DNA from: Candidatus Woesebacteria bacterium
GTDB lineage: Bacteria; Patescibacteriota; Microgenomatia; UBA1400; PJMF01
Assembly (NCBI GenBank): GCA_017999345.1
Contig: JAGNLY010000003.1
Location: forward strand, 4,138 to 68,137
Reading direction: 5' to 3'
DNA length: 64,000 bases
Of this stretch, positions 21,117 through 48,308 are shown in pieces. The first letter of the stretch is position 1; each line of letters opens with the position of its first letter. The position numbers and the translations under genes were made by a program. Below the pieces are notes generated by a model that was not told where the DNA came from, did no database searches, and saw only the letters and a program-made list of their open reading frames with translations.

Positions 21117-21156
21117 TTAAGCGTTTTTTTTGTGCCTTTTTATATATAATAGGATC

Positions 21157-22080
21157 ATGAAATTTTCAGTTGCAATTTGTAGTAAAAATAGAGAAAAGTC
21201 TCTTGAGAGAACTGTGCGCTCTATTTTAAATCAATCATTACTGCCATCCACTATATTTATCGTAAAGACTGTAAAAGTAGTTACCAAAAATTTTCATAAA
21301 AAAATAATAATAATCAAAGATAGTGCTATTGAGATTTACCTAATAGAAATATCAGAGAATAAGGCTAAGACAATCGGATTTTCAAGAAATATCGCCTTAA
21401 GTCTATGCAAAACAAAAGAATTATTTTTTGTGGATGATGATGTTATTTTAAAATTTAATACTTTTAAAAAACTCATGAAAGTATTAAAGAACGACAATAG
21501 ATTATTTTCTGCATCTGGAAGGGTGGTAGGAATTGACTCCTCACTTTTTTCTAGATATATGACATTTTTTCACTCGCAAGGATTTCTGAATCCATCTGTG
21601 CCACAACTGATGGATAATGCTAGTACAACATGTGTTTTAATTGACATGGATAAATGGAGAAAAAATAAAATATTTTTCCCAACTGAAATTAGCGCAGGAG
21701 AAGACGTATTATTTTTTGCATACTTTAGAGAACAAAAATATTCTTTAATGTATTGTCCAAAAATAACCATAAAACATGATTTTTTCCCTAATCGCTTTGA
21801 TTTTTTTAGAAGATTCTTTTGGTACAGCTCATCAATGATAGAAACTAATAAGATAGATAATAGATTTTTTTATGAATACTTTGATTATCTACCATTAAGG
21901 AGATTGCATTTAATTTTTTTTCCATTTTTTTTAATATTTAGAGCTTTTTCACTTACTAAAGTTTCCTATAATTCAGAAAAAATCAGAGACAAATCGCTTT
22001 TTTGGGCAGAGTATTTAAGAAATATGACATATGTTGTTGGTGTAACATACTCAAAGTTCTTCAAGAAATCTTTTATATAA
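21157..22080 (+). CDS. glycosyltransferase family 2
   Basis: MKFSVAICSKNREKSLERTVRSILNQS..., FFVDDDV motif. ATG 21157 with AGGA upstream, 41 nt after 5S. Confidence 0.75.
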   Translation: MKFSVAICSKNREKSLERTVRSILNQSLLPSTIFIVKTVKVVTKNFHKKIIIIKDSAIEIYLIEISENKAKTIGFSRNIALSLCKTKELFFVDDDVILKFNTFKKLMKVLKNDNRLFSASGRVVGIDSSLFSRYMTFFHSQGFLNPSVPQLMDNASTTCVLIDMDKWRKNKIFFPTEISAGEDVLFFAYFREQKYSLMYCPKITIKHDFFPNRFDFFRRFFWYSSSMIETNKIDNRFFYEYFDYLPLRRLHLIFFPFFLIFRAFSLTKVSYNSEKIRDKSLFWAEYLRNMTYVVGVTYSKFFKKSFI

Positions 22081-23146
22081 TTTTTTGTAGTAAAGGATAA
22101 ACTTGATCGTTAAGATTATTTAGTGGCATAGCATTGAACCATGGTGTTTTATCAGAAGATTTTATCTTGTAAATAATGCTATGAGCCAAGTACTTATACA
22201 TAAGTCTTTTATCTTTTTCTCCAGTAAAATGGATGACTTTAACCTTCGTAGGAATTAATTCATTATGAAAATTTGTCCTAAAAAAAGGTGCTAAAGTGTA
22301 ACTACTTGGTAGTTTTTTTGTTGGAAGAACATTAAAAAACCATGCATGAAGAGATTGTTCGATGACGCTTTTGCCAAAGCAAAAATCCAGCACTGCAATT
22401 TTTGATCTTGGAAAATCATTGGTATCAGTTAGTAGTCGATCATCCATTTGATCAATCATTGCTAGAAATATTTGATTAATTTTTGACAATAAGTTTTTCT
22501 TAGTAAGCAGGTGTTTTTGAATTGCGACCATGCCGGAGTTTACATTAGAGAAATTGTGTTTCTTTTTTAGCAATCTATCCATTTCTAATTTTGATAAAAC
22601 AGAGTAATTTCTGCAGTCAAATGAAAAGCGAGAAAACTTTGTTTCATTTTCTATCCAGTCAATAAGCTCCTTAGGTTTTTTTAAGAATAGAATATCGCAA
22701 TCAAATATTAAATACTTGCTTTTTTTTGAGTGAATAATGGGAGATAAAAACTTTCCCGCAGCCCATGTTTTATTGCTCCACTCGATTAGTTCAGGGAATT
22801 TTTTAATGCTCGATAAGTGAAAGTTATGTTTCAATAATTCAATTTGTGGGAAAAACATTTTAAAAAGATAGATTTGCCACTTTTTAAGTGATCCATCATT
22901 AATAATATGGATTTTAGTGTTATAGAAGAATAAAAAACTTGAAATACCGGCTATTGATACCCAAAAATATCTTCCTGGAACAGGCACGTATATATCACAA
23001 TCAGGTTTATGCAAAGACGTATCTTTGTTTTTTATAAGTTCAAAGAAGGCGCGTATGTTCACTAAATATTCATAGAATATTATGACAACTTTATTTCTTA
23101 TTTTTTTTAAAAATGTTTTCATTAATTTTTTTGTATTATATCCCAA
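22073..23146 (-). CDS. putative glycosyltransferase, GT8-like
   Basis: GT8-style motif order: IFDCDILF (DxD), NVNSGMVAI, VIHFTGEKDK. An alternative start ATG at 23122 would overlap the upstream stop as TAATG. Confidence 0.45.
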   Translation of the reverse strand: MGYNTKKLMKTFLKKIRNKVVIIFYEYLVNIRAFFELIKNKDTSLHKPDCDIYVPVPGRYFWVSIAGISSFLFFYNTKIHIINDGSLKKWQIYLFKMFFPQIELLKHNFHLSSIKKFPELIEWSNKTWAAGKFLSPIIHSKKSKYLIFDCDILFLKKPKELIDWIENETKFSRFSFDCRNYSVLSKLEMDRLLKKKHNFSNVNSGMVAIQKHLLTKKNLLSKINQIFLAMIDQMDDRLLTDTNDFPRSKIAVLDFCFGKSVIEQSLHAWFFNVLPTKKLPSSYTLAPFFRTNFHNELIPTKVKVIHFTGEKDKRLMYKYLAHSIIYKIKSSDKTPWFNAMPLNNLNDQVYPLLQKII

Positions 23147-23943
23147 GTTATTTCTAATGCTTTTTTAATTTTAGTGAATGAATATTTTAAGCGATTACTT
23201 GCTAAAACCGGGACGTTTTCTCCATTTTCTAGTTTTACAACATTGCAACTAATTTTTAATTTGTCACAAATATTGTTTGCAAAATCTGAAAGGGTTACTG
23301 ATTCTTTACCAGTTAAATGTATAATTCCGTTTATATTTTCCAACATTAACTTTTCAATAATTATATTGAAATCGTCAATAAAAATCGGCTTTCTTTTTAT
23401 TTTCGAATTAAGGTGAATAGTTTTATTATTTATAAGTGTTCCAATAAAACCATTATTTTTGTGAATAGGATCGTAACCATAGATCATGTCAGATCTGATA
23501 ATTAAATGGTCTGAAATTTTCTTAATAAGATTTTCAGATTCGATTTTTAGTTTTCCATACAAGTTGAAAGGACTACTAATATCTTGCTCAAAATATTTGT
23601 TTTTTTTGCCATCAAAAACATATATTGAAGACAAAAAAATTACTTTTATATTCAGTTTATTAATAGTTTTTAGAATAGGAACTAGTGAGGAAACATTAAT
23701 TTTAAATGCATCATCAAGATTTTTCTCTACTTCATTTGGTCTAGCGATTCCAGCAGCAAAGATAATAACATTTGGCTTAATGGAATTAATGATATTTATA
23801 GTTTCTTTTCGATTTTTTAAATCAAGCTTTATAAATGGAGGAAGGCTGTGTCTTGAAGTACCAAAAACATGATGCCTTTTCTCAAGAAATGTATATAGTT
23901 TATTTCCTAAAAAGCCAGATGCACCAATAATTAATATTTTCAT
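23122..23943 (-). CDS. SDR-family sugar-nucleotide reductase/epimerase (RmlD-like)
   Basis: MKILIIGASGFLGNKLY Rossmann motif. SSIYVFDG....Y.E......P.N.YGKLK resembles dTDP-4-dehydrorhamnose reductase. Start at ATG 23943. Confidence 0.65.
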   Translation of the reverse strand: MKILIIGASGFLGNKLYTFLEKRHHVFGTSRHSLPPFIKLDLKNRKETINIINSIKPNVIIFAAGIARPNEVEKNLDDAFKINVSSLVPILKTINKLNIKVIFLSSIYVFDGKKNKYFEQDISSPFNLYGKLKIESENLIKKISDHLIIRSDMIYGYDPIHKNNGFIGTLINNKTIHLNSKIKRKPIFIDDFNIIIEKLMLENINGIIHLTGKESVTLSDFANNICDKLKISCNVVKLENGENVPVLASNRLKYSFTKIKKALEITWDIIQKN

Positions 23944-24023
23944 AAAAAGGTATTTATGGATTATATCAAAGTACAGCTTAAATATGTTAATCATGTTAAA
24001 ATCAGAGTTGGAGTTTTTTTATA

Positions 24024-25220
24024 ATGACTTTTAATAAAAATACAAAAAGAATCATATTTGTAACTGACTATGTCAAAGTTGGCGGAAGCAGAACATTTCT
24101 AAATGACCTGTTGAAAGAATGTTATAAAGCCAAGATATATGTTGAGGTCATATTTTTTTCAAAAGAGATAGTTGATGATGAAGAATATAAATCTAGTAGA
24201 TTTAATTTTATAAAGATTCCATCTCTTAATTATCTATTTACTTTTTATAGGTTTTTTTCGCTAATTAGTTGGATTTCAAAATTTAAAAAGCACAATACAG
24301 TCATATTAACTGATTTATTTTTTCCTGCTTTTTCATTAATTTTAATAAAGAAATTTTTTAGAATAAAAACTAATATCGTTTATCAATTTCATGGATTTGA
24401 TTCTTATGAACAACAGAGCAGAGCAATTTATGAAAATATTTATAAAAGCAAACACTATTTATTTTCACAGATATTAAAAAAAATAATTGAAAGGTTTGTA
24501 TTAAGAAATGTAGACGAAGTTATCTGTTTTAGTAATTATTCAAAAAGCTTAGTTATGAAAGAGCTTAAAAATTTTAAAAATATTTCTGTTATCAATCCTG
24601 GATATTCATCAATATTTGGTCTTAATAAATTTACAAAAAAAGAATACAGACAACAAATTGGTTTATCAAATGAAGCAAAGGTAATTTTATATATTGGTAG
24701 AATAGAACCCAGAAAAGGCATTTTTAATTTTTTTAATGAGTTGGAAAAGAATCTAGATTTTTCAAAAAAATATACAATATTATTTGTTAGTTCATTTACT
24801 GATAGCTCTTTTGCAATAGATTTATTTAAATTATCTAAAAAGACAAATTATATATCAAACATATTATTTATTAATAATCCTCCTAGAAAAGATATTGATA
24901 AATTTTATTATGCTAGTGATTTAATGATTTTGCCTTCTTTAGATCTCGAAACATTTGGTTTTGTAACGCTTGAGGCAATGGCTTGTGATTTGCCCACTGT
25001 TGGTTTTGATATTGGAGCAAATGAAGATTTAATTAACAAAAATCTGCTTGTGGATAGGAAATCTGGTATGAAGGGGATTATAGATAAAATTGATTATTAT
25101 TTTTCTCTGGAAAATAAGAAAAAGAGATTGATTATTAGTTCACTAAAAAATAAAACAAATGATTACACATACAAAAATTACGTTAGCAATCTTGACAAAT
25201 ATTTTACCAAATTAAGCTAG
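24024..25220 (+). CDS. glycosyltransferase family 4 (GT-B, Glycos_transf_1)
   Basis: C-terminal ...PSLDLETFGFVTLEAMACDLPTVGFDIGANEDLI, with the E-x7-E-type motif. Confidence 0.8.
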   Translation: MTFNKNTKRIIFVTDYVKVGGSRTFLNDLLKECYKAKIYVEVIFFSKEIVDDEEYKSSRFNFIKIPSLNYLFTFYRFFSLISWISKFKKHNTVILTDLFFPAFSLILIKKFFRIKTNIVYQFHGFDSYEQQSRAIYENIYKSKHYLFSQILKKIIERFVLRNVDEVICFSNYSKSLVMKELKNFKNISVINPGYSSIFGLNKFTKKEYRQQIGLSNEAKVILYIGRIEPRKGIFNFFNELEKNLDFSKKYTILFVSSFTDSSFAIDLFKLSKKTNYISNILFINNPPRKDIDKFYYASDLMILPSLDLETFGFVTLEAMACDLPTVGFDIGANEDLINKNLLVDRKSGMKGIIDKIDYYFSLENKKKRLIISSLKNKTNDYTYKNYVSNLDKYFTKLS

Positions 25221-25244
25221 TTTGATTGTGTTAGAATAACCTTT

Positions 25245-26015
25245 ATGCCTCGATATTTTTCAAAGAATTGGATAGATTTTATTTGGGTCATGACTCATAA
25301 AGAGATCAAGGCCAGGTACAAAAGAGCATTTTTGGGATTCTTATGGATATTTTTAAATCCTTTGCTTCAAATGATTGTCATAGGTTACATATTTCAATTT
25401 TTTGTTCCTGTAAAAATTGATCATTATTTTAATTTTTTATTTTCTGGATTACTTCCATGGAATTTTATTTCATATACAGTATTAAAATGCACTCCGTTAA
25501 TTTACAACGAGAGATCATTAATACAAAAAGCAAAATTTCCTAGAGAAGCCTTAGTACTTTCTATTATATTTTCCAACTTATTTCATTTTCTTATATCCAT
25601 CGGAATTTTGCTTATATTTACAATTTTATTTGGTTCGATTTCAATAGCCAAAATTGTATTGCTAATATTTGCAATTTTTATTATGACAATATTCGTAACT
25701 GGTTTATCATTTTTGTTATCTGCATTATATGTAAAGTATCGAGATATTAAATTTATTGTTAATGCTTTAGTTCCACTTTGGTTTTATGCAACTCCAGTTG
25801 TATACACAAGATCTTTATTAGCGGGCTGGCTTGATAAAATAATTCAATTTAATCCTATTACTGGAATAATTGAGTTATTTCAATATATTTTTACTGATGC
25901 CGTTGCTGTTAACCAATTGGTTTTAGGAAAATCTATAATTATTTCAGTCGTTGTTTTTATTCTTGGTATTTATGTTTTTTCACGGGAATCAGAATATTTT
26001 GATGATTGGCTATAA
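25245..26015 (+). CDS. polysaccharide/teichoic-acid ABC exporter permease (ABC-2, Wzm/TagG-like)
   Basis: 256 aa, 6 TM. N-terminal KEIKARYKRAFLGFLWIFLNPLLQM is typical of ABC-2 type glycan exporters. Confidence 0.85.
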   Translation: MPRYFSKNWIDFIWVMTHKEIKARYKRAFLGFLWIFLNPLLQMIVIGYIFQFFVPVKIDHYFNFLFSGLLPWNFISYTVLKCTPLIYNERSLIQKAKFPREALVLSIIFSNLFHFLISIGILLIFTILFGSISIAKIVLLIFAIFIMTIFVTGLSFLLSALYVKYRDIKFIVNALVPLWFYATPVVYTRSLLAGWLDKIIQFNPITGIIELFQYIFTDAVAVNQLVLGKSIIISVVVFILGIYVFSRESEYFDDWL

Positions 26016-26017
26016 AT

Positions 26018-26752
26018 ATGAAAAAAAGCAAAAGTATCGTAATTGATGCTAAAAATATATCAAAAAAATATTTATTGAGACATGAAAAACCAACATTTGT
26101 GGAAAACCTGCTTTATAAATCAAAAACTGAATACCATACGGCATTGGACGATGTAACTTTATCTATTTTTAAAGGGGACAGACTAGGAATAATTGGAAAA
26201 AATGGTTCAGGAAAAACAACTTTGCTTAAGCTTTTCTCAGGCATCACAAGGCAGCAAACGGGCAAGCTATCTATCCATGGTAAAGTTGTATCATTAATCG
26301 ACTTAGAAGCAGGTTTTCATCCAGATTTATCTGGTGAAGATAATATTTTTTTACAAGGATTAATTCTTGGAATGAGTGTAAATGAATTATCTGAAAAAAA
26401 GAGTGAAATTATTCAATTTGCAGAGATTGGTAAGTTTATTGATGCTCCAGTATATACGTATTCAAGTGGAATGAAATTGAGATTAGGTTTTTCTATAGCA
26501 ATTCACTCTAATCCAGATATATTGCTTTTAGATGAAAATTTTGCAGTTGGTGACGAAGCTTTTAGAAATAAAATTCGTATTAAATTTAAGGAGTTTCGTA
26601 AGAATAATATAACATTAATATTGGTGAGTCACTGGATTGAGGAGCTAGAAAAAAGTTGCAATAAATTTTTGTGGTTAGATAATGGAAGAGTTGTTGCTTA
26701 TGGTGGTAAGAAAGTTATTGAAAAATATAAAAAGTCATTTTTGAACAAATAA
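26018..26752 (+). CDS. polysaccharide/teichoic-acid ABC exporter ATPase (Wzt/TagH-like, short form)
   Basis: Walker A GKNGSGKTTL, signature YSSGMKLRLGFS, Walker B ILLLDENFAVGD. ATG 26018 lies just after the permease stop. Confidence 0.88.
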   Translation: MKKSKSIVIDAKNISKKYLLRHEKPTFVENLLYKSKTEYHTALDDVTLSIFKGDRLGIIGKNGSGKTTLLKLFSGITRQQTGKLSIHGKVVSLIDLEAGFHPDLSGEDNIFLQGLILGMSVNELSEKKSEIIQFAEIGKFIDAPVYTYSSGMKLRLGFSIAIHSNPDILLLDENFAVGDEAFRNKIRIKFKEFRKNNITLILVSHWIEELEKSCNKFLWLDNGRVVAYGGKKVIEKYKKSFLNK

Positions 26753-27628
26753 TAAATTAAATCTTTGTTTTAAGTAAATTAGTAAACCTAACATAAGTCC
26801 AGTAACTTTTATTAAAAATTCTTTAGCAATAAAATTATAGTAAATATTTTTGAATTCATTTTTTATTAGATCCTTAGAAAATTTGTTCCCATTAAATAAT
26901 AATGAAGAATAACACGCGGTACCGCCAAGAGAGTAACTCAAATAAAGATTTCTGTTTTCTTTAGTACTAATCCATCTATTATGGTAAATTACCATGAATG
27001 GATTGTAGGCAATTTTATGTCCTAGCAAAAGACATTTATTGGCTATTTCAGCATCTTCAGCTGATCTACCTATCGATCCAGGTCCTAGCAAAGTTTCAAA
27101 TTTAATTACTTGGTTAAAAATATTTTTTCTAAAAGACATGTTATTGCCAAAGCCTATTTCTTCCCAATGCTTGCAAGGATTTTTTGTATAAGAAATGTAA
27201 TCATTTTCTTTAGAGAAAGTTGCCGGACAAATCATGTCTTTTTTCTTTGTTAAAATGAATGGTTTTGTATTACCAAAAACAATACTTTCTTTTTCATTTT
27301 TTTGAAAAAATTCGCTTATTTGTTTAATCCATCTTATATCAATAACACAGTCATCATCTGTGAAAGCAAGTATATTTCCTTTTGCTCTAGAAATTGCATC
27401 ATTCAAGCTTCTTGATTTACCTACATAATTAACTTTGTAGTATTTAACAATAGGAGAATTCTTTTTTTGAACTATTTTCTTTGTTTTATCAGATTTGCTT
27501 TGATCAATAACAATTATTTCAAACGGTAACACCTCAGATTTTAGAAGTGAGTAAATGCATCTGTATAGATCTTTTGGTCTATCTCTTGTGGCAATAATTA
27601 CTGAAACATTTAAAACAGATTTAGCCAT
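26735..27628 (-). CDS. glycosyltransferase family 2
   Basis: VSVIIATRDRPKDLYRCIYSLL...IIVIDQS...AFTDDDC. Confidence 0.8.
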   Translation of the reverse strand: MAKSVLNVSVIIATRDRPKDLYRCIYSLLKSEVLPFEIIVIDQSKSDKTKKIVQKKNSPIVKYYKVNYVGKSRSLNDAISRAKGNILAFTDDDCVIDIRWIKQISEFFQKNEKESIVFGNTKPFILTKKKDMICPATFSKENDYISYTKNPCKHWEEIGFGNNMSFRKNIFNQVIKFETLLGPGSIGRSAEDAEIANKCLLLGHKIAYNPFMVIYHNRWISTKENRNLYLSYSLGGTACYSSLLFNGNKFSKDLIKNEFKNIYYNFIAKEFLIKVTGLMLGLLIYLKQRFNLLFVQK

Positions 27629-36841: not shown

Positions 36842-36843
36842 TT

Positions 36844-37566: not shown

Positions 37567-37698
37567 AATATATAATCTTTTAGATCGGACTGTTTTTTTT
37601 GATGTCTTACAATGTTGCTTAATCCACAAGCATGCAGTTAGTATAACCTAATTTTTTTAATTTCTTATCAAAGTTATGAACAATTTTAAAGAAAAAGT

Positions 37699-38334: not shown

Positions 38335-38423
38335 ATTGTTACATCTCATACCTTACAATAATTTATGTTGTATAAGTATATAGTTAATACAATATAGATA
38401 ATTTATCTTTTTTTTTCAAAGAT

Positions 38424-40878: not shown

Positions 40879-40880
40879 AA

Positions 40881-42341
40881 ATGGAATTTCTTTTAAAAAA
40901 CAAAAAATTTCAAACCTTTTTACTTTTTACTTCTTTTTGCTTACTTTTTTTTGTTCCAAGATATTTTGCTAGCACTAGATACGATGCCTTAGAAGATGAG
41001 ATCTTGGCAATTCAAAATAATATGAATTATTCAGTTAAAGAATTTATCTTCGCTCCAGATTTTACTCATCCAGGATTTTGGTACATGTTAATGGATTTTC
41101 CAACAAGTATATTGGGCATTAGTCACGGAATTTTTTATTATAGATTGATACAGGTTTTAAATTTATTAGTTTTAATAATTTTTGCATTTTTTTATTTTAG
41201 AAAGAAATTGTCAAATGTTTTTATTTTAATATTTTTTATACTATTTTTTACCAATATATATTTGGTTCATTTAACTGTTCAGCATAGAATGTATTCTTTA
41301 GTATTGGGATTAAGCATAATTTATTCTTTTTATTGGTATCATCTTTTTCTAAAGAAAAATGTAATTTCTTATAAAGAGGCAATATATTTGGGGGTACTAG
41401 CGTCAGCAAGCTTTTTTACGAATTATAGTGTTATATGGCTAATTCCCATTTGGCCATTGGCATATCTTGTATATAAAAGGAGCTTCCCAGTTCTAAAAAA
41501 AATGTCGGTATTTGGTTTAACAATTTTAACTTGTGTGGGGTGGTTTATACCTATTTTTATAAAAAATGCAAATACAAGTATAACTCATAATCAATGGACT
41601 CAACATTTTAGCTTGAGAAACTTTTTACAACTTATCGGTAATTATTTTGGTCTAATTCCTAGAAATTTAGGCACAAATGAAATCAATTTTTTTGTTTTGC
41701 CTTTTATATTTTTATTTATCTTTATTATTATTTGGATGATTTTTGTTAAAAAAATCATTTATATGAGATATTTGTTTCTTTCCTTACTTATTTTTTTTGC
41801 AGCCTTTGTGTTTGCTGTTCGCATAACTGGCAATAGTTTGTTGTATGCAAGAACATCAATTCCATTTGTTGTTCTTGTATACGTCATGATTGCTGATTCT
41901 TTCATTAGGGGTAATAAAGTCATCAAATTTTTATCAATTTGTTTGATGATAATGCAGCTCTTTCAATTTTTTATTTATTTTTCTTCAAATAAAGAAATTG
42001 ATGAGATGTATCATTTATTTGATTATAAAGAAAACACCTTAGGTCATTTCAAAAAATATAAGTTTGAGGAGGGGAGTTGTTTGATTCCAATACCTGGATG
42101 GAATACTACCTCAGCACATTTTTTTCTTGATAAATCTGTAAAAGTTATTGCAACAGATCTCAAGGATGTTGATCAGGAATTAAAAAAAATGTCGAGTTGT
42201 TCGAAGATTTATGTTTTAGATCAAACTTCTGTTGATAGAACAATTACTAGCCAATTTTATCAATATTTTAATATAGCTGAATCAAAAATAGAACTGGTTG
42301 AGGTTTATATAAATCAGTCGTTATATGTTCTAGAAAATTAG
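40881..42341 (+). CDS. polytopic membrane protein, putative GT-C glycosyltransferase (paralog 2)
   Basis: 486 aa. Shares LLFF[IV]PRYFAS, D.[ML]EDE, HPG[LF]WY, FRKKLSN.F, CL[LI]PIPGWN[ST]TS, IY[LV]LDQ.SV.R with the previous gene. Confidence 0.5.
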   Translation: MEFLLKNKKFQTFLLFTSFCLLFFVPRYFASTRYDALEDEILAIQNNMNYSVKEFIFAPDFTHPGFWYMLMDFPTSILGISHGIFYYRLIQVLNLLVLIIFAFFYFRKKLSNVFILIFFILFFTNIYLVHLTVQHRMYSLVLGLSIIYSFYWYHLFLKKNVISYKEAIYLGVLASASFFTNYSVIWLIPIWPLAYLVYKRSFPVLKKMSVFGLTILTCVGWFIPIFIKNANTSITHNQWTQHFSLRNFLQLIGNYFGLIPRNLGTNEINFFVLPFIFLFIFIIIWMIFVKKIIYMRYLFLSLLIFFAAFVFAVRITGNSLLYARTSIPFVVLVYVMIADSFIRGNKVIKFLSICLMIMQLFQFFIYFSSNKEIDEMYHLFDYKENTLGHFKKYKFEEGSCLIPIPGWNTTSAHFFLDKSVKVIATDLKDVDQELKKMSSCSKIYVLDQTSVDRTITSQFYQYFNIAESKIELVEVYINQSLYVLEN

Positions 42342-42353
42342 AATAATTAAAGT

Positions 42354-43790
42354 TTATTTTGGTTTAAAAACAAGAAATTTACCTATTCTTTTATCAAATC
42401 TATAATTTGACCACATCGCAATATATGTTTGACTTGACCAATGCATATATTTGTTTGCCGTAGCTATTGCCAATGAGTCAGAATCTAATTGATAGAAATC
42501 TGGTTGTTGAATTGAAATCAAAATTAAATCCGCCTTTTTTGTATTAATATAATTTATTAAAATTGAGTTTTCTATTTGCTCTCTATGGAGCATTTGCGTC
42601 GTTGCAAAGGGATCAATTATAATTTCTTTACCTGCTAATGGCAAAAGCGCAATGCTATTATCATCAGCCAATATTTTATCTGCGCGTTGAATTTCATTTA
42701 ATAACTCATGTTCTGATTGTGAAAAATTTTGTTTTGATAAAGTTATAGTCTCTCTGAAATTTATATTAATTGCTAGATACACAATAATCAAAAGAAAACT
42801 TATAATGTCGCTATGTTTAACATTTCTAATTGATTTGGTTGTCAACCAAACCAACCCAATCGTAGCCTCAAGAAAATAATTTCCGTCAGATCCTGCTTTA
42901 AAGGCTGTAATTGTAATGAGCAAAGCAGCTAAAACATAGGAAACTAATTTTATGTCCTTAAAAAATTCCTTTTTAGTAAAATAAGCAATGATTACTAGTA
43001 GTAATAATAAAATGGCATTTTGGTAGAAAAAATTTCTAAGGAAGGGCAGGATATGGAGCAAAGACCAATCCATTTTAAAATTGACAGTAATTAAGTTAAA
43101 GTAAAAACTACCATTTGTTATCAGATTAATTATAAGAAATGGAATACCAATAAATGATATTAAATATTTAATAAGATTTGATAATTCTGAATATTTTTTT
43201 TCTGTTAATAAACCAACAATCATATATACAAATGCTGGTATTCCAATATTTTGTTTAGTTAACACAGCTAATGATAAAAATAATGCGCTATAAAATATTT
43301 TATGATGTTTAACTTTTTCAAAAACCCATATTGAAAAAATACTGAATGCTATGGCCAAACCACAGACTCTATTTAATGTAAACCATTTAATTAAGTCAGG
43401 TGAGCTAAAAAAGATTATAAAAAAAGTTAGCTTATTTAAATAACTTCTTCGATCCAAAGATATTAAAACTTTGAAAATAATCAGTAAAGAAATTATTGAT
43501 AAAAAACGGCCGCCAAAAAATGACTGACTCTCGCCAAAAATTATGTGATTTATACCATAAAAAACTGGAGTATAAGCATTTAAAAGTGAAGGCTCATTCT
43601 TGAATGAAGGATACATTTTGTTCCAATTAGGAAAATTGTTACTGTTTTGTAAAACATAGCCTTCGACTAAGTTTAGAGGAGCTTTATAGTTTAATTGGTT
43701 AATAGCTACAATAAAAAATCTAAAGCCAATTATTATTGCGACTAAAGTTAAAATAATTTCACTGATCGATAATTTCGGATATTTACGCAC
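42354..43790 (-). CDS. polytopic membrane protein, possibly GT-C-like
   Basis: 478 aa, at least 10 TM, soluble C-terminal ~110 aa. GTG start. Context among glycan genes. Family not recognised. Confidence 0.4.
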   Translation of the reverse strand: MRKYPKLSISEIILTLVAIIIGFRFFIVAINQLNYKAPLNLVEGYVLQNSNNFPNWNKMYPSFKNEPSLLNAYTPVFYGINHIIFGESQSFFGGRFLSIISLLIIFKVLISLDRRSYLNKLTFFIIFFSSPDLIKWFTLNRVCGLAIAFSIFSIWVFEKVKHHKIFYSALFLSLAVLTKQNIGIPAFVYMIVGLLTEKKYSELSNLIKYLISFIGIPFLIINLITNGSFYFNLITVNFKMDWSLLHILPFLRNFFYQNAILLLLLVIIAYFTKKEFFKDIKLVSYVLAALLITITAFKAGSDGNYFLEATIGLVWLTTKSIRNVKHSDIISFLLIIVYLAININFRETITLSKQNFSQSEHELLNEIQRADKILADDNSIALLPLAGKEIIIDPFATTQMLHREQIENSILINYINTKKADLILISIQQPDFYQLDSDSLAIATANKYMHWSSQTYIAMWSNYRFDKRIGKFLVFKPK

Positions 43791-43939: not shown

Positions 43940-45262
43940 TCAATCAAAATTAGATCCTGGATGGACAATGAAATCTAAACTTTTGCTTTTTTCAACTTTT
44001 TTTTGTTTGTATATCAGCTTCAAGATTTCAGAAATTATAAAATGTATCAGGTATTTGTGAATCTTTGGTTTTAAATAATTTCTTATTGAATTCAAAGACC
44101 TAACTTTTTTAATTCCATTTTTTTCAGCTACTTCATTGAATATGCTCCTAACTGGTTCAAATGCATGAAGATGCTGTTCAGAGTTAATCTCTTTAATAGC
44201 AATATTATTTTGTTTAAAAAATAATATCTGAGCTTCAATTTCTTTAGCAATTTCTTTTTTTGAAATTCTTTTAAATAAAAGTTTAATCAAAAAAACTGGG
44301 AGACTAAAAAATATTCCATTTCGATCAACTAAGCTTGGTATAATTTTAGGCTTTAGTATTGGTTTTCCTCTCAAAATGTTTATGTGGGCAATTATATTAG
44401 ATTCATTTATAACTTTTTTAAGCATCTGCAAATCATTGATAGAAACAAGGTTTGCAAAAATTGATACATGGGTAATTGATCCCGCTGTAGCTTGGTCTAA
44501 AATCGCATTATTGATTATTTTTGACATTCCATAGTCGTCAGCTACAATTTTTTTTGATACATCTGGTTGTAATTTTTTAAATGCAAATAATCTCATAAAG
44601 TCGATCAAGATTCCAGAAATTCTTTTTAAAGAGGAATAACTTTTTGGTTTTAGTTCTTGGATGGAAGTTGGAATTTCAATTATTTCGTTTTTAAGTTTTA
44701 GTAATAGTTCGTTATCGAATAGTTCATGTTTTGTTATTGTTTCCAGCAATATTTTTTTTAGTCTTTTTGTGTTCTTAAATGCCATTATTTTATGTCCATC
44801 AGTTCCTTTGAGTTCAAAAAAACGATATGAAAATAGCTCGATTAGCTTTGCAATAGCTATTTCAAAAAAAGGTCTGTAGTCATTATTATTTTCTGATTTT
44901 AAAGCACAAACAATATTTTTTGTTTTTAGTTTTATTAGTGATTTTTTTATAAAGTTTGTATCATGAAAATCAAGGTCTAGCACGAAAAGATATGCGCAAT
45001 TAGAGCTTAAAAGTCCATGCTTTATTGCTTGTCCGTATGATGAAAATGATATTCGTCTTTTTTTAATGAAACTGTATTTTTTTTCTAGGTTACATATTTC
45101 TTCCCATGAGTTATCCAAACTTCCGTTTTCAACTAAAATAATTTCGTTTATGGGTATCTTGGATTGTTTAAGAGTCTTAATAAAAACTTCTATTTTTATT
45201 GTCAAATTTTTCTCTTCATTATAAACAGGGAAAATATAGCTAGTTTTTATTTTCTTGAACAT
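43940..45262 (-). CDS. fusion protein: GT2 polyprenol-phosphate glycosyltransferase-like domain + YdjC/ChbG-family carbohydrate deacetylase domain
   Basis: N-terminus YIFPVYNEEKNL...ILVENGSLDNS...FVLDLDF (DPM1/GtrB-like GT2). C-terminus IVADDYGMSKIINNAILDQATAGSITHVSIFANL ... HLHAFEPV ... DFIVHPG (YdjC-like). Confidence 0.7.
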   Translation of the reverse strand: MFKKIKTSYIFPVYNEEKNLTIKIEVFIKTLKQSKIPINEIILVENGSLDNSWEEICNLEKKYSFIKKRRISFSSYGQAIKHGLLSSNCAYLFVLDLDFHDTNFIKKSLIKLKTKNIVCALKSENNNDYRPFFEIAIAKLIELFSYRFFELKGTDGHKIMAFKNTKRLKKILLETITKHELFDNELLLKLKNEIIEIPTSIQELKPKSYSSLKRISGILIDFMRLFAFKKLQPDVSKKIVADDYGMSKIINNAILDQATAGSITHVSIFANLVSINDLQMLKKVINESNIIAHINILRGKPILKPKIIPSLVDRNGIFFSLPVFLIKLLFKRISKKEIAKEIEAQILFFKQNNIAIKEINSEQHLHAFEPVRSIFNEVAEKNGIKKVRSLNSIRNYLKPKIHKYLIHFIISEILKLIYKQKKVEKSKSLDFIVHPGSNFD

Positions 45263-45395
45263 GTTGCTTATAGTTATTTTTTGACATTAAATTGAGTTGT
45301 AGTATGAAGCAGCTAACTACTGAGTATATATAGCAGATATAACAATATATGTACAACTACAACTTTTATTATAGTATTTATGCTAATATTAGTAT

Positions 45396-47711
45396 ATGCA
45401 TTTTTCTCCTAAAAAGACTATTTTTTTATCAATATTTGCTTGTTTTCAATTATTGATATTTTTAACTTTTTCAACAATGTACTCTTTCATAGTAATTGCG
45501 TTTTTTTTATCTTTTTTACTTTTTTATTCTTGGTATTTCAAGTTAAAAATGGCCTTGGATTTAAAAATCTTATTGCCTTGGATTTCATTTATTGTTTTAT
45601 TGGCAATTTCATCAATATTTACGCACAGTATTTCTTTAACTTTAGATGAAGTTATTTTTCATCTAGCATCATTTTGTATTTTCATGTTCTTTTTAAGTTT
45701 GGGTGAAAGTAGAATCTTTTCTAAGTCTGATTTTATTTCAACTTTTCTAATTATTGGCATAGTTTTTTCTATTTTTTTCATAGTATTCTTTAGTTTTTCA
45801 AATCTGACATTTTTTTTGCCACCATTAAATATCTTCACAGCAGTTAACGGGCATAGTCATATGGCGGCTGTATTGCTAATTTTAATACCGCTTTCATGGA
45901 TATTTGCTTCATCAAATAAATATTCAAACTTTAGTCATCGATACCTCTTGGTAGTTTTATTTTATATTTTGTTAGTGTTAAATTTTGGAAGATTTTCTAT
46001 TTTATTAGCTTTAATCCAATTACCATTTTTATATCTATCAATTTCAAAGAAGGTTATAAATAAAAAATATTTTTTAATGGCTATTTTTTTATTAGTATTT
46101 TCAATTATATCGATTGGCTATTTTTCATTTGATGATAGAAAAACTTGCAAAGTTAGAGAGTTTGATCTTCAGTTGTGCAAACCACTTGTTCATGAAGCCA
46201 GACCTGATTATTTTAGAAGAGCAATTTTAGGAATAAAAGACTTTCCATTTTTTGGCTATGGTCCTGGTACGTATAGGCTATTAAGTGCAAAATACAACTT
46301 TGATAATAAAAATTTATCAACTTTTGCTCATAATGTGTTTTTGGAGATGTATGCTGGATCTGGAATTTTTGTTGGCACTGCTTATTTAGTGTTAATTTTT
46401 ATTTTGTTTAAATTAATGTTTTCAGTACGAGAAAATGGATATAACACCATTATTTTAATTGGTTTAATGGGGTTGCTGCTGAATTCCTTTATGGATTATG
46501 ATTGGAATGGTTTTCCAATTTATCAAATGTCGATGATTTTTATTTCATTAGTGCTTTGGGATTATCAACAAAAAAAATCGTATTCTAGTAAAATTTCTAG
46601 TAAATTAATATGGAATTTATTAACTATATTAATAATTATTTTAGGATTAGTAAATTTAACAACGAAGTTATTAATCAACTTTGATAGAGATGAAGATGCT
46701 TTTAATTTTTTTCCACACTTTTATTTTCACTCAAATTATTTTTTAACCGAATCAAATATAACTAATGATCAGAAAAAAAAGTTATACGAACTTAATCCTT
46801 ATGACGAAAAGTATGTTTATCAAAATATTTCTGAATCAACTGATCCACAAGAAAAGTCTTTATTGTATGGGAGGCTTTTGGACATATCACCTTTGATTTC
46901 TATTAATTCTTCATATTTTGATAATTTGAAGCAAATTAATGACTACGAAATGTTGGCAAGTGTCGCCACTAAAGGATTCAATTTATTAAACCAAGCAGAA
47001 GTTAATTCTTATTTGCAAAAAGATAGACTTAAAAGTGAAATTTTAAGTGTTATTCATGAAGGATCGATAAGTCTTATTGAAAGTGGTAATTTAGATAGTG
47101 CAATAAATTACTATGACACTATCTTAGAAGTTGTTTTTAATGTGTCTTTGGAAAATAATTTTCATGTTTTTTATAGTGAGTATTACTCTCTATGGAGTTC
47201 TAATTTAAATACTTTTTTTGATAAACTTTATAAAAAAGACCCAGAAAAAGTCAGATTTGAGCTTCAAAAAATATATTCTTATGATGCTAACTCTAAAAAA
47301 AGAGATGGGGAAGTAACAGTTTTTGCATATGATATTCTTTCTGCATATGCTGTAAAACTTGCTAAGTCAGATTTGGAGAGCGGAAGGTTTTCAGATTCGG
47401 CCAAGATGCTTGTTATAGCTCAAAGTTTTAATAAGTGGGTTTTAAATGAGCTTCCAGATGATTTTTTTGATCTATTGAATGCTGATGTTGAAAATGAAAA
47501 AATATTTTGGTTGGCTATGGATGAATTTCCAGACGAATATTTTGTTAAGTTTAGTGGTTTAGCATATGAAAAGAATACCATTCTTCTTTTAGAAGAATCT
47601 GACTATGATGCTTTTAAAAAAAGGCTAGAAAGAATTTTAAAAATTGCTCATTGGATTGAAAATACCCAAGAATATAAAGATCTCTCAGAAAAATTTCTTC
47701 AAGATAATTAA
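45396..47711 (+). CDS. Wzy_C (O-antigen ligase/oligosaccharyltransferase-like) membrane domain + C-terminal helical-repeat domain
   Basis: 771 aa. About 400 aa polytopic with FAHNVFLEMYAGSGIFVGTAYLVLIF (Wzy_C loop). About 330 aa soluble helical, TPR-like tail. Confidence 0.65.
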   Translation: MHFSPKKTIFLSIFACFQLLIFLTFSTMYSFIVIAFFLSFLLFYSWYFKLKMALDLKILLPWISFIVLLAISSIFTHSISLTLDEVIFHLASFCIFMFFLSLGESRIFSKSDFISTFLIIGIVFSIFFIVFFSFSNLTFFLPPLNIFTAVNGHSHMAAVLLILIPLSWIFASSNKYSNFSHRYLLVVLFYILLVLNFGRFSILLALIQLPFLYLSISKKVINKKYFLMAIFLLVFSIISIGYFSFDDRKTCKVREFDLQLCKPLVHEARPDYFRRAILGIKDFPFFGYGPGTYRLLSAKYNFDNKNLSTFAHNVFLEMYAGSGIFVGTAYLVLIFILFKLMFSVRENGYNTIILIGLMGLLLNSFMDYDWNGFPIYQMSMIFISLVLWDYQQKKSYSSKISSKLIWNLLTILIIILGLVNLTTKLLINFDRDEDAFNFFPHFYFHSNYFLTESNITNDQKKKLYELNPYDEKYVYQNISESTDPQEKSLLYGRLLDISPLISINSSYFDNLKQINDYEMLASVATKGFNLLNQAEVNSYLQKDRLKSEILSVIHEGSISLIESGNLDSAINYYDTILEVVFNVSLENNFHVFYSEYYSLWSSNLNTFFDKLYKKDPEKVRFELQKIYSYDANSKKRDGEVTVFAYDILSAYAVKLAKSDLESGRFSDSAKMLVIAQSFNKWVLNELPDDFFDLLNADVENEKIFWLAMDEFPDEYFVKFSGLAYEKNTILLLEESDYDAFKKRLERILKIAHWIENTQEYKDLSEKFLQDN

Positions 47712-48308
47712 ATTAATTGATTGAAAAATTAATTTTAAATCCAATATGCTTGACCCATGTTTTATCGTTTCAAGCTCGAGTTTTTTCCAAGCTTGAAGTG
47801 ACTTGTATCTATTTTTCGATATTGCCCATTTTGATAAAATTCCTGGCCTTACAAGATATCTAAAGTTCCATTCTGCTGGAAGTTTTTTTGCTTCATCAAG
47901 AGGTAGCGGGCGAGGTCCAACGAAACTCATTTCACCTTTAAGTATATTTAATAGTTGTGGCGCTTCATCAATTCCTAACTTTGAAATAATTTTGCCAAAT
48001 TTGATGAACCTTGGATCATCATTAACTTTAAACATAGGGTATGGGGCAGTGCTTAGTTTTCTGTACTTACTTTGTTGTTTTTCGGAGCCATTTTTCATTG
48101 TTCTAATTTTATAAATAGTAAAAGGAACTTTATCTTTGCCCATTCTTTTTTGTTTAAAGATAAAAGGTTTGCCAATCAGAAATATAAATAGGGGATAGAT
48201 GATCGCTAGAAATGGAATTATAAATAAAATACCACTTACAGATAAAATAATATCAAAAAATCTTTTTTTAAATGAATGGTAGTATGAATGAATAATATAT
48301 TTAGCCAT
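47685..48308 (-). CDS. small monotopic phosphoglycosyl transferase (bacterial sugar transferase, PglC/WbaP C-terminal type)
   Basis: FIFKQKRMGKDKVPFTIYKIRTM...DEAPQLLNILKGEMSFVGPRPLP. Confidence 0.88.
   Translation of the reverse strand: MAKYIIHSYYHSFKKRFFDIILSVSGILFIIPFLAIIYPLFIFLIGKPFIFKQKRMGKDKVPFTIYKIRTMKNGSEKQQSKYRKLSTAPYPMFKVNDDPRFIKFGKIISKLGIDEAPQLLNILKGEMSFVGPRPLPLDEAKKLPAEWNFRYLVRPGILSKWAISKNRYKSLQAWKKLELETIKHGSSILDLKLIFQSINLIILKKFF

What the first reader, a model, noticed from the sequence alone, without database searches (positions are those of the whole stretch)
21130..48308. ~27 kb very AT-rich cell-surface glycan locus starting 41 nt after the 5S rRNA
The locus holds twenty-two consecutive genes devoted to glycan assembly or embedded among such genes. 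There are at least 10 glycosyltransferase-type genes: GT2 x3, GT4/GT-B x3, GT8-like, GT26, RGP/GT75-like and a GT2-YdjC fusion. There are also a PglC-like initiating transferase, a Wzm/Wzt ABC exporter, two Wzy_C proteins, three GT-C-like proteins, a methyltransferase, two sugar-nucleotide enzymes and a glycoside hydrolase-like protein. Sampled lines give 17-25% G+C against ~40% in flanking core genes; gme (~40%) is an internal exception. ABC-dependent (Wzm/Wzt, TagA-like) and Wzy-type components coexist. This suggests two glycans, or a polymer plus a protein-glycosylation branch. The composition and the position beside an rRNA unit fit a hypervariable, horizontally exchanged locus.
Basis: partly seen in the sequence, partly recalled or inferred. 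Interest (0 to 1): 0.55.

Follow-up and report, generated by a model that had tools for sequence, protein, structure and literature searches.

The report
Cell-surface glycan gene cluster, CPR bacterium
This is a real 27-kb cluster of sugar-coat (surface glycan) genes in an ultrasmall Patescibacteria genome: an ordinary kind of locus, made of a conserved core plus swappable edges, whose one unusual feature is a plant-like enzyme pair predicted to make a rare furanose sugar.

Summary
The locus is real. It holds 23 ORFs at 21157-48308. Eighteen have clear glycan-pathway Pfam domains, and a nineteenth (865 aa) is a membrane-tethered beta-propeller plus GH5-like hydrolase by structure prediction. 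The "GT8-like" and "three GT-C-like" calls could not be verified.

The GC contrast is overstated: 28.5% against 34-37%, not 17-25% against 40%. It lies in codon positions 1-2, where FYMINK residues make up 42% against 28% of the protein. Four-fold degenerate sites are equal (0.19 vs 0.21). Relatives show the same 3-7-point drop, so composition does not argue for recent import.

Position is conserved: most sampled close relatives also have a glycan locus starting right after the 5S rRNA, and three have one abutting the same surface-protein/PilO/PilN/MurJ block. Content is mosaic. The core (Wzm/Wzt ... GME, 25.2-39.4 kb) is shared at 42-80% identity, while the edges differ.

Wzy_C is the ligase/O-oligosaccharyltransferase domain, and no Wzx or Wzz is present. 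One ABC-transporter-dependent pathway ending in a Wzy_C transferase therefore suffices, as in Gram-positive S-layer glycosylation clusters.

The notable part is a bona fide GDP-mannose 3,5-epimerase plus a GT75 NDP-pyranose mutase, which predicts a furanose sugar. This is a new member of a known kind.

The parts
17795..21116 (+). 23S (17795-20731) and 5S (21000-21116) rRNA, forming the conserved left boundary; no 16S in the window
   Evidence: Rfam gathering hits. 5S adjacency to the glycan locus recurs in L064, L066, L025 and L029.
21157..22080 (+). GT2 glycosyltransferase with one C-terminal TM helix; variable zone 1
   Evidence: Pfam Glycos_transf_2 at 2e-10. Start codon and RBS. Found only in conspecific L020.
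22073..23146 (-).
   Evidence: No Pfam, NCBIfam or PDB hit. 26% tblastn match to an unannotated ORF in L067.
23122..23994 (-). RmlD-family NDP-4-keto-6-deoxyhexose reductase-like protein
   Evidence: Pfam RmlD_sub_bind at 3.5e-36. PDB dTDP-4-dehydrorhamnose reductases at 1e-19 to 1e-21.
24024..25220 (+). GT4 glycosyltransferase; variable zone 1
   Evidence: Pfam Glycos_transf_1 at 4e-22 plus Glyco_transf_4.
25245..26752 (+). Wzm (ABC-2 permease, 25245-26015) and Wzt (248-aa ATPase with no C-terminal glycan-binding domain, 26006-26752)
   Evidence: Pfam ABC2_membrane at 4.5e-15 and ABC_tran at 3e-20. Orthologues at 46-66% identity in L025, L029, L041, L064, L066 and L067.
26735..27628 (-). GT2 glycosyltransferase
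   Evidence: Pfam at 7.5e-24.
27610..28590 (-). GT75 (RGP) family protein, a predicted NDP-pyranose to NDP-furanose mutase
   Evidence: Pfam RGP at 1e-49, full length. PDB UDP-arabinopyranose mutase 8cid at 1e-24 and MtdL 7yua at 2e-13. DDD, catalytic Arg, D195, S228, R257, D260 and H287 equivalents align. 1246 homologues; the named ones among the listed top 120 are all CPR or unclassified bacteria.
28632..29813 (-). GT4 glycosyltransferase (best NCBIfam similarity to TuaH, below cutoff)
29812..31365 (+). Wzy_C-domain polytopic membrane protein (517 aa), a predicted glycan ligase/O-oligosaccharyltransferase; part of the core
   Evidence: Pfam Wzy_C at 5.7e-20. 68% identity in L029 and 42% in L067.
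31313..32227 (+). 304-aa single-pass membrane protein of unknown function that travels with the Wzy_C gene
   Evidence: No family hit. 70% identity in L029 and 43% in L067. The gene in the same position in a Woesebacteria contig is DUF4330.
32227..33078 (+). GT2 glycosyltransferase; part of the core
   Evidence: Pfam at 1e-24. 80% identity in L029 and 67% in L067.
33075..35672 (+). 865-aa protein: N-terminal TM anchor, BamB-like beta-propeller, DUF5060 Ig domain, GH5-like (beta/alpha)8 hydrolase and a C-terminal beta-sandwich
   Evidence: Pfam. Invariant W622-E623, N626-E627 and E703 in a 22-sequence alignment. AF2 pLDDT 85.8. Foldseek hit to GH5 ManDH5 at E 5e-25, TM 0.63.
35663..36841 (-). 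GT4 glycosyltransferase; part of the core
   Evidence: Pfam. Start taken from the conspecific gene call. 74% identity in L029.
36844..37566 (-). WecG/TagA/CpsF (GT26) transferase, acting on the lipid-linked primer
   Evidence: Pfam at 1e-42. NCBIfam superfamily model above its cutoff.
37699..38334 (+). Class I SAM methyltransferase; among fetched loci present only in the conspecific MAG
   Evidence: Pfam. Presence matrix. Present in conspecific L068.
38424..39416 (+). GDP-mannose 3,5-epimerase (GME)
   Evidence: PDB 2c59 at E 1.7e-99, with the SSAC, YG-EKL and GGREKAPAA motifs aligned. 75-76% identity in L021, L029 and L067.
39403..42341 (+). Two tandem paralogues (491 and 486 aa, 38% identical) of a very small family of polytopic membrane proteins with an invariant E-D-E in the first loop
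   Evidence: paralogy. (30 representatives in 1.84 billion proteins). (invariant columns). Classification attempts were negative or weak.
42354..43790 (-). 478-aa polytopic membrane protein, unclassified
   Evidence: About 7 predicted TM helices. No family hit. No relation to the paralogue family by hhalign.
43940..45262 (-). GT2 fused to a YdjC-family carbohydrate deacetylase
   Evidence: Pfam YdjC at 6e-28 plus GT2 at 2e-8. NCBIfam HpnK and chitin-disaccharide-deacetylase similarity. 41% homologue in L003.
45396..47711 (+). Second Wzy_C-domain protein (771 aa) with a roughly 350-aa C-terminal extension; conserved partner of the PGT at the right end of the locus
   Evidence: Pfam Wzy_C at 1.3e-10. 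28-38% homologues next to or near PglC in L001-L003, L009 and L015.
47685..48308 (-). Small monotopic (PglC-type) polyprenyl-phosphate glycosyl-1-phosphate transferase, the initiating enzyme
   Evidence: Pfam Bac_transf at 3.6e-47. NCBIfam EPS_sugtrans C-terminal domain.
48367..50115 (-). 582-aa Thr/Ala/Ser-rich surface protein with N- and C-terminal TM segments, forming the conserved right boundary; a candidate glycan acceptor (inference only)
   Evidence: Pfam fn3-like, Big_6 and CarboxypepD_reg domains. Sequence and composition. Collinear with PilO/PilN/MurJ in 14 of the 19 loci fetched around MurJ.

Best explanation
The interval is the main envelope-glycan biosynthesis locus of a Paceibacteria-type Patescibacteria (CPR) bacterium.

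SHOWN.
- The gene families listed under 'parts'.
- The recurrence of the locus between the 5S rRNA and the surface-protein/PilO/PilN/MurJ block in close relatives.
- The mosaic of a conserved core and variable edges.

INFERRED MECHANISM.
1. The PglC-type phosphoglycosyltransferase primes undecaprenyl phosphate on the cytoplasmic face.
2. The TagA/WecG-type GT26 adds the second sugar.
3. The GT4 and GT2 enzymes extend the chain. The GT2-YdjC fusion adds and de-N-acetylates a HexNAc, and the methyltransferase modifies or caps the chain.
4. Donors include GDP-L-galactose or GDP-L-gulose from GME, a furanose nucleotide sugar from the GT75 mutase, and a 6-deoxyhexose from the RmlD-like reductase.
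5. Wzm/Wzt export the finished lipid-linked chain.
6. A Wzy_C-family enzyme transfers it to an acceptor outside the membrane, most plausibly a surface protein, as in Gram-positive S-layer glycosylation (slg) clusters.
7. The membrane-tethered beta-propeller/GH5-like enzyme trims or processes the polymer outside the cell. The three unclassified polytopic proteins add lineage-specific decoration or polymerisation.

AT-RICHNESS. It reflects AT-rich amino-acid usage in weakly constrained genes evolving under the host's own mutation bias. It does not indicate recent foreign origin.
For: - Gene families.
- GH5-like fold and catalytic Glu pair.
- No MOP/Wzx, Wzz/PCP, integrase or transposase among the 23 proteins. 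No flanking repeats.
- Organism: Patescibacteria/Pacebacteria relatives.
- Left junction: 5S is followed by Wzm in L064 (65 nt), L066 (JACKFW01) and L025, and by an RmlD-like gene in L029.
- Right junction: the 582-aa gene is followed by PglC and Wzy_C in L001-L003.
- In JACKFW01 the two junctions lie about 25.2 kb apart on one contig (coordinates).
- Core synteny: L029 at 42-80% identity and L067 at 42-76%.
- Composition: GC3 0.230 vs 0.251, four-fold GC 0.19 vs 0.21, and FYMINK 0.42 vs 0.28 in both soluble and membrane locus proteins. Relatives' loci show the same 3-7-point drop.
- Precedent for PGT + GTs + methyltransferase + Wzm/Wzt + Wzy_C O-OTase (+ ManNAc transferase) as one pathway: PMC2943079.
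- GT75 enzymes are NDP-pyranose mutases: PMC9937993.
Against: - No biochemical data exist, and the acceptor is unknown.
- Two Wzy_C proteins and three unclassified polytopic proteins are more than one pathway strictly needs. Two members of the paralogue family hit the EpsG (Wzy-like polymerase) model weakly, at 5e-5 and 1e-3, both below the gathering score.
- Wzt lacks a glycan-binding domain, so a methyl-cap recognition mechanism is not supported.
- TagA-type enzymes classically follow a WecA/TagO-type primer enzyme, not a PglC-type one.
- The mutase's nucleotide specificity (GDP vs UDP) is unresolved. It is closer to plant UDP-arabinopyranose mutase (1e-24) than to GDP-specific MtdL (2e-13).
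- The middle ~17 kb of the closest relative's locus could not be fetched.
Confidence: 0.6

Rival explanations
1. Two independent pathways share the locus. One is an ABC-transporter-dependent polymer built from Wzm/Wzt, TagA and nearby GTs. The other is a Wzy-type or block-transfer branch built from the Wzy_C proteins and the three polytopic proteins acting as polymerase/flippase. The products would be two glycans, or a polymer plus a protein-glycosylation branch.
For: - There are two Wzy_C proteins.
- There are three further polytopic proteins. Two members of their family give weak EpsG hits.
- The locus is modular. The right-end pair Wzy_C-771 + PglC is present at the right end of relatives' loci whose sampled parts show no core genes other than TagA and GME homologues in L002.
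- There are about 10 changes of transcription direction.
Against: - No MOP/Wzx flippase and no Wzz/PCP is in the locus.
- Only one priming transferase is present.
- Wzy_C is the ligase/O-OTase domain and does not mark a polymerase.
- The EpsG hits are below threshold.
- Known single pathways contain the same set of parts.
Confidence: 0.25
2. The whole 27 kb is a recently acquired, horizontally exchanged genomic island, as in O-antigen or capsule switching. Its low G+C would reveal a foreign donor.
For: - GC is 28.5% against 34-37%.
- The tetranucleotide profile of locus segments correlates better within the locus (0.83-0.88) than with the flanks (0.61-0.78).
- Edge modules are absent from the relatives sampled.
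- One 85%-related genome (L065) has unrelated genes after its 5S.
Against: - Synonymous composition equals that of the flanks.
- The same GC offset is seen in every relative and scales with host GC.
- The position recurs in most close relatives sampled, and the core is syntenic in L029 and L067.
- No mobility genes or repeats were found.
Confidence: 0.1
3. The product is a wall-teichoic-acid-like or secondary cell-wall polymer that an LCP enzyme encoded elsewhere attaches to peptidoglycan. The Wzy_C proteins would serve a different, minor role.
For: - A TagA/TarA-type GT26 and a Wzm/Wzt (TagGH-like) exporter are present.
- The best NCBIfam similarities of several GTs are to the teichuronic-acid enzymes TuaC, TuaG and TuaH, all below cutoff.
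- The envelope is Gram-positive-like, with LPATG sortase-type surface proteins nearby.
Against: - No LCP, TagO/WecA, TagB/F or CDP-glycerol/ribitol genes are in the window.
- The priming enzyme is PglC-type.
- A Wzy_C gene sits inside the conserved core next to the GTs.
Confidence: 0.2

Closest known systems
S-layer glycosylation (slg) gene clusters of Geobacillus stearothermophilus NRS 2004/3a and Paenibacillus alvei CCM 2051T (PMC2943079)
   Same: Both have a Bac_transf priming enzyme, several GT2/GT4-type transferases, a methyltransferase function, RmlD-type sugar-nucleotide enzymes, a Wzm/Wzt exporter and a Wzy_C-domain transferase. P. alvei also has a ManNAc (TagA-type) transferase. Both occur in a monoderm-type envelope.
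   Different: The primer enzyme here is the small PglC type rather than the large WbaP type. There are two Wzy_C proteins. A GME+GT75 module, a beta-propeller-GH5 exo-enzyme and three unclassified polytopic proteins are added. No S-layer gene has been identified, and the acceptor is unknown.
ABC-transporter-dependent O-antigen pathway with WaaL ligation (E. coli O8/O9a type; established knowledge)
   Same: The chain is assembled completely on undecaprenyl phosphate, exported by Wzm/Wzt, and then transferred by a Wzy_C-family ligase. A methyltransferase is present in the locus.
   Different: There is no outer membrane or lipid A-core acceptor in a CPR monoderm. Wzt lacks the carbohydrate-binding domain that reads the cap. 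The primer is not WecA.
A201A and hygromycin A sugar pathways: the GT75 mutases MtdL and Hyg20, which act on GDP-L-galactose/GDP-L-fucose (PMC9937993, PMC8787198)
   Same: A GT75 NDP-pyranose mutase with conserved DDD, Arg, Asp and His residues sits in the same locus as a GDP-mannose 3,5-epimerase, whose product GDP-L-galactose is MtdL's substrate.
   Different: The setting here is an envelope-glycan locus, not an antibiotic cluster. The CPR enzyme is closer in sequence to plant UDP-arabinopyranose mutases, so its nucleotide and sugar are unresolved.
Exopolysaccharide operons that carry their own glycoside hydrolase (e.g. BcsZ in cellulose operons, PslG in Psl; established knowledge)
   Same: A secreted or anchored clan GH-A-type hydrolase is encoded inside the biosynthetic cluster and conserved with it.
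   Different: Here the hydrolase is fused to a BamB-like beta-propeller and a DUF5060 domain and anchored by an N-terminal TM helix.

Membership tests
ABC-transporter-dependent polysaccharide pathway | Wzm-type ABC-2 permease plus Wzt-type ATPase encoded together | tested here: met
   Pfam ABC2_membrane at 4.5e-15 and ABC_tran at 3.4e-20, in overlapping genes 25245-26752.
ABC-transporter-dependent polysaccharide pathway | Polyprenyl-phosphate priming transferase and cytoplasmic GTs; no Wzx flippase needed | tested here: met
   Bac_transf at 3.6e-47. Eight cytoplasmic-type GT domains. No MOP/Polysacc_synt hit in any of the 23 proteins. Three polytopic proteins remain unclassified.
ABC-transporter-dependent polysaccharide pathway | Chain-termination cap read by a C-terminal carbohydrate-binding domain of Wzt (O8/O9a subtype) | tested here: not met
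   Wzt is 248 aa and contains the ATPase domain only. A separate methyltransferase exists but is absent from non-conspecific relatives.
Wzx/Wzy-dependent pathway | Wzx (MOP-family) flippase in the locus | tested here: not met
   None among the 23 proteins. The only MOP protein in the window is a clear MurJ (3.6e-66) outside the locus.
Wzx/Wzy-dependent pathway | Wzy polymerase | tested here: inconclusive
   The Wzy_C domain is shared with ligases and O-OTases. The 39403/40881 family gives only sub-threshold EpsG hits in 2 of 18 members.
Wzx/Wzy-dependent pathway | Wzz/PCP chain-length regulator | tested here: not met
   No Wzz or GNVR hit.
Protein O-glycosylation of the slg / PglL type | Wzy_C-domain oligosaccharyltransferase encoded with the glycan genes | tested here: met
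   Two Wzy_C proteins, one of them inside the conserved core. The domain alone cannot separate an O-OTase from a ligase.
Protein O-glycosylation of the slg / PglL type | Identified glycoprotein acceptor | not testable with these tools
   Only candidates exist: the adjacent 582-aa Thr/Ala/Ser-rich surface protein, and three LPATG proteins with PT-rich linkers at 4087-10911.
GT75 NDP-pyranose mutase (RGP/UAM/MtdL) | DDD metal motif, catalytic Arg (MtdL R159), D195, S228, R257, D260 and H287 | tested here: met
   Alignment to 7yua and 8cid: TIDDDC, TRGMPY, LDFD, PMCSMN, DRFDDIW and PFIEH. Residue roles are from PMC9937993.
GT75 NDP-pyranose mutase (RGP/UAM/MtdL) | Conserved Asp equivalent to MtdL D87; nucleotide-specificity residues (T13, N42, S86) | tested here: inconclusive
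   HMMER aligns D87 to Ser75. The N-terminal IVIPTIRNLDFL looks plant-like, but that comparison used an RGP1 sequence recalled from memory.
GDP-mannose 3,5-epimerase | Full-length similarity well above other SDR epimerases, plus catalytic Cys/Lys and Tyr-x3-Lys | tested here: met
   E 1.7e-99 to 2c59 over residues 4-326, against 7e-28 for the next family. SSAC, YGWEKL and GGREKAPAA all align.
GT-C glycosyltransferases | GT-C fold, or a hit to a GT-C family model (PMT_2, ArnT, etc.) | tested here: inconclusive
   No Pfam, NCBIfam or PDB-profile hit. One of 18 family members hits PMT_2 at E 0.39. hhalign to a PMT_2-like neighbour gene of L021 was negative. The AF2 model has pLDDT 44.
GT-C glycosyltransferases | Conserved acidic motif in the first extracytoplasmic loop | tested here: met
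   Invariant E36-D37-E38 just after TM1 in 18 sequences. This is suggestive only.
Clan GH-A / GH5-like glycoside hydrolase | (beta/alpha)8 barrel with Asn-Glu (acid/base) and a second catalytic Glu | tested here: met
   Foldseek top five hits are GH5 ManDH5 at E 5e-25, on a model with pLDDT 85.8. N626-E627 and E703 are invariant. No CAZy family assignment was possible.
Horizontally acquired genomic island | Atypical synonymous/codon composition, mobility genes and flanking repeats | tested here: not met
Horizontally acquired genomic island | Presence/absence polymorphism between close relatives at a fixed site | tested here: met
   Met for the edge modules only. The core is conserved.

The most novel reading that the evidence does not exclude
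Patescibacteria widely use a plant-like, metal-dependent GT75 mutase in place of the FAD-dependent Glf enzyme. In this lineage it is coupled to GDP-mannose 3,5-epimerase. Their surface glycans or glycoproteins would therefore carry an L-galactofuranose-type (or other GT75-derived furanose) sugar. This would be the first envelope-glycan role for bacterial GT75 enzymes. A lineage-specific beta-propeller-GH5 exo-enzyme would process the polymer.
Probability: 0.3. Interest if true: 0.55.

Novelty: new member of a known kind. Interest (0 to 1): 0.35.

Why it matters
CPR/Patescibacteria live attached to host cells, and almost nothing is known about their surface chemistry. This locus gives a concrete parts list for a CPR surface glycan. 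It separates a conserved core from strain- and species-variable modules, which are likely to matter for host or phage recognition. It also makes a testable prediction of a rare furanose sugar made by a GME + GT75 pair. Only two bacterial GT75 enzymes have been characterised, both in antibiotic pathways (PMC9937993). The result is also a caution: low G+C in a glycan locus of an AT-rich genome can arise entirely from amino-acid composition and is not evidence of import.

Tried and rejected
- Exact-sequence look-up of the window's MurJ found nothing. The source assembly is not in the collection, but a conspecific MAG, GCA_964496685.1, is. Its two contigs are 99.1% and 97.5% identical in nucleotides.
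No fold search was run on that model because it would be meaningless.
- PDB sequence searches for both Wzy_C proteins, for 22073 and for 31313 returned nothing useful.
- The idea that the GT2s with C-terminal TM helices are GtrB/ArnC-type polyprenyl-phosphate sugar synthases feeding GT-C enzymes was dropped. NCBIfam gives only generic GT2 similarities.
- The GC-rich ORF 15867-16670 was checked for a hidden RNA. No Rfam match was found.
- No repeats or mobile-element boundaries were found.
- Literature searches for GT75/RGP in the candidate phyla radiation returned no paper.

Full report
WHAT IS THERE

The window comes from a Patescibacteria (CPR) genome of the Pacebacteria/Paceibacteria type. 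The closest species representatives are MAGs HK-STAS-PATE-15 (JACKFW01), binchicken_co277_32 (CAZUHV01) and BroJett025 (BOKR01), with MurJ 73-79% identical. Their record titles carry mislabelled names such as 'Pseudomonadales'. A conspecific MAG, GCA_964496685.1, covers two pieces of the locus at 99.1% and 97.5% nucleotide identity.

Rfam places the 23S at 17795-20731 and the 5S at 21000-21116, with tRNA-Ala at 17097. No 16S is in the window. From there to 48308, 23 ORFs lie back to back.

GENE CONTENT

- three GT2, three GT4 and a WecG/TagA GT26
- an RGP/GT75 protein (1e-49)
- a GT2-YdjC fusion
- a small PglC-type Bac_transf (4e-47)
- Wzm and Wzt
- two Wzy_C proteins
- an RmlD-like reductase, an SDR epimerase and a methyltransferase.

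The epimerase is a genuine GDP-mannose 3,5-epimerase. It matches Arabidopsis GME at E 1.7e-99, against 7e-28 for the next family, and its catalytic motifs align.

The 865-aa protein was modelled from a 22-sequence alignment (pLDDT 85.8, pTM 0.83). Its C-terminal half matches a GH5 beta-mannanase (Foldseek E 5e-25) and has an invariant Asn-Glu and a second invariant Glu. Its N-terminal half is a BamB-like propeller behind a TM anchor. 'Glycoside hydrolase-like' is therefore correct.

The 'GT8-like' protein (22073-23146) and a 304-aa protein (31313-32227) match nothing.

The 'three GT-C-like' proteins could not be classified:
- Two are tandem paralogues, 38% identical.
- Their family has only 30 representatives among 1.84 billion proteins.
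- The family has an invariant Glu-Asp-Glu in the first loop, which is GT-C-like.
- The only model hits are sub-threshold EpsG matches in two members and PMT_2 at E 0.39 in one.
- The permitted two-sequence AF2 model is unusable at pLDDT 44.

COMPOSITION

The locus is 28.5% G+C. The left and right protein-coding flanks are 37.2% and 33.9%, and the rRNA is 45%.

The difference sits in codon positions 1 and 2: GC1 is 0.35 vs 0.45 and GC2 is 0.28 vs 0.36. GC3 is 0.230 vs 0.251 (p=0.11), and four-fold degenerate sites are 0.19 vs 0.21.

FYMINK residues make up 42% of locus proteins against 28% of flank proteins. The value is the same in soluble and membrane locus proteins.

The glycan loci of five relatives sit 5-7 points below their own flanks and follow each host's GC. 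The non-glycan genes that follow the 5S in L065 sit 3 points below their flank.

The modules unique to this species are the most AT-rich (26.5%), and the conserved core is 30%. No integrase, transposase or boundary repeats were found.

I read this as long residence under the host's AT mutation pressure with weak constraint on amino-acid composition, not as recent import.

COMPARISON WITH RELATIVES

Right side. The block 582-aa surface protein / 162-aa protein / PilO / PilN / MurJ / LepA is collinear in the relatives. In L001-L003 it is followed at once by glycan genes: PglC at 49-58% and Wzy_C-771 at 28-38% identity. Their order differs in each genome.

Left side. The 5S is followed by Wzm/Wzt in L064 (65 nt away), L066 (JACKFW01) and L025, and by an RmlD-like gene in L029. 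In JACKFW01 both junctions lie on one contig about 25.2 kb apart (coordinates). The site and the size of the locus are therefore conserved.

One 85%-related genome (L065) has unrelated genes after its 5S.

More distant relatives carry the 23S-5S next to the MurJ block in inverted orientation, with no glycan locus between them.

Inside the locus, a presence matrix separates four zones:
- Zone 1 (21.1-25.2 kb) is seen only in the conspecific MAG.
- The core (25.2-39.4 kb) runs Wzm, Wzt, GT2, GT75, GT4, Wzy_C, 304-aa protein, GT2, GH5-like, GT4, TagA, GME. It is syntenic in L029 (42-80% identity, one local rearrangement) and L067 (42-76%), and partly present in L025, L021 and L023.
- Zone 3 (39.4-45.3 kb) holds the three polytopic proteins, seen in no fetched relative, and GT2-YdjC, seen only in L003.
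- Zone 4 is the Wzy_C-771 + PglC pair.

Each fetched locus covers only about 10 kb either side of its anchor gene, so absences are provisional.

None of the three closest species' contigs appears among the top GT75 hits or among the 22 homologues of the 865-aa protein. This suggests, but does not prove, that they lack these genes.

MECHANISM

Wzy_C is the O-antigen-ligase domain shared by WaaL, PglL, PilO and the S-layer O-oligosaccharyltransferases WsaB and WsfB. No Wzx, Wzz or second primer enzyme is present.

The slg clusters of G. stearothermophilus and P. alvei combine a Bac_transf primer, GTs, a methyltransferase, Wzm/Wzt and a Wzy_C transferase in one pathway. P. alvei also has a ManNAc transferase (PMC2943079).

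I therefore favour one ABC-transporter-dependent pathway whose product a Wzy_C enzyme transfers to a surface acceptor. The GH5-like exo-enzyme would process the polymer. The acceptor is inferred only. Candidates are the conserved adjacent 582-aa Thr/Ala/Ser-rich protein, and three LPATG-anchored Cys-repeat proteins with PT-rich linkers upstream.

The two-pathway reading remains possible at about 0.25.

THE UNUSUAL PART

GT75 proteins are metal-dependent NDP-pyranose to NDP-furanose mutases. [quoted passage not shown]

The window's GT75 protein keeps the DDD motif and the Arg, Asp, Ser and His residues shown to be essential in MtdL. It has 1246 homologues at E<1e-5. The named entries among the listed top 120 are all CPR or unclassified bacteria, and many are 70-83% identical.

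A GME gene lies within 10 kb of it here and in L021, L025, L029 and L067. GME + GT75 would make GDP-L-galactofuranose.

However, the CPR enzyme is closer to plant UDP-arabinopyranose mutase (1e-24) than to MtdL (2e-13). UDP-Galf or UDP-L-Araf are therefore equally open. I found no paper linking GT75 to CPR.

VERDICT

This is a genuine but ordinary kind of locus, an envelope-glycan cluster in a new lineage. Its architecture is a conserved core with variable edges. Its AT-richness does not indicate foreign origin. Its one moderately novel feature is the predicted furanose module.

Noticed in passing
window 3960-4033: A tRNA-Ile with anticodon TAT (UAU). Most bacteria read AUA with a lysidine-modified CAU tRNA, so this suggests a TilS-independent decoding strategy.
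   Followed up: no
window 17097-21116; L064, L065, L066: The rRNA unit is tRNA-Ala, 23S and 5S with protein genes upstream and no 16S, so the 16S is unlinked. Relatives share this layout. A 28-nt, 89%-complementary inverted repeat (17554-17581 and 20843-20870) brackets the 23S like a processing stem. The 23S genes of the relatives carry insertions, including a LAGLIDADG ORF in L065 and a 749-nt insert in L066, whereas the window's 23S is uninterrupted.
   Followed up: partly
window 15867-16670: A 267-aa Leu/Gly-rich hydrophobic ORF with 47.5% G+C and GC3 of 0.53, far above every other gene in the window (GC3 0.20-0.29). It has no Pfam or Rfam match and no counterpart at this position in L064-L066. 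It is a better compositional candidate for recent acquisition than the glycan locus, or it may be a spurious ORF.
   Followed up: partly
window 4087-10911: Three paralogous large surface proteins. Each has tandem ~45-aa Cys-rich repeats (CN.SC...C.S.N..WTCD...KCRL), and two have PT-repeat linkers and a C-terminal LPATG motif followed by a hydrophobic tail, i.e. sortase-type sorting signals. GC2 reaches 0.61. They are possible glycosylation targets.
   Followed up: partly
window 48367-57368 versus L004, L005, L007, L010, L012, L014, L018: In more distant relatives the 23S-5S lies directly beside the LepA/MurJ/PilN/PilO/582-aa block, in the opposite orientation and with no glycan locus between. 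This implies an inversion whose endpoint coincides with the glycan-locus site.
   Followed up: partly
L029 and L030 (contig Ga0209774_1000029): One 167-kb metagenome contig carries two GT75 genes about 30 kb apart (77% and 74% identical to the window's), each in its own glycan-gene neighbourhood. One of them has a 1035-aa double-propeller version of the GH5-like protein.
   Followed up: no
L020 and L068 (GCA_964496685.1) versus window 21550-28529 and 32447-38804: The conspecific MAG is broken into 6-7-kb contigs inside this locus. Its two pieces differ from the window by 0.9% and 2.5%, which is uneven divergence and could reflect strain mixing or recombination within the locus.
   Followed up: partly
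L067 20911-22685: In a relative, AbiEii toxin-family genes sit immediately beside Wzm at the edge of the glycan locus.
   Followed up: no
L065 17393-20636: In an 85%-related genome the 5S is followed by a 339-aa unknown protein and a 739-aa SEC-C/DUF7986 protein instead of glycan genes. This may be an insertion or a replacement at the same site.
   Followed up: no
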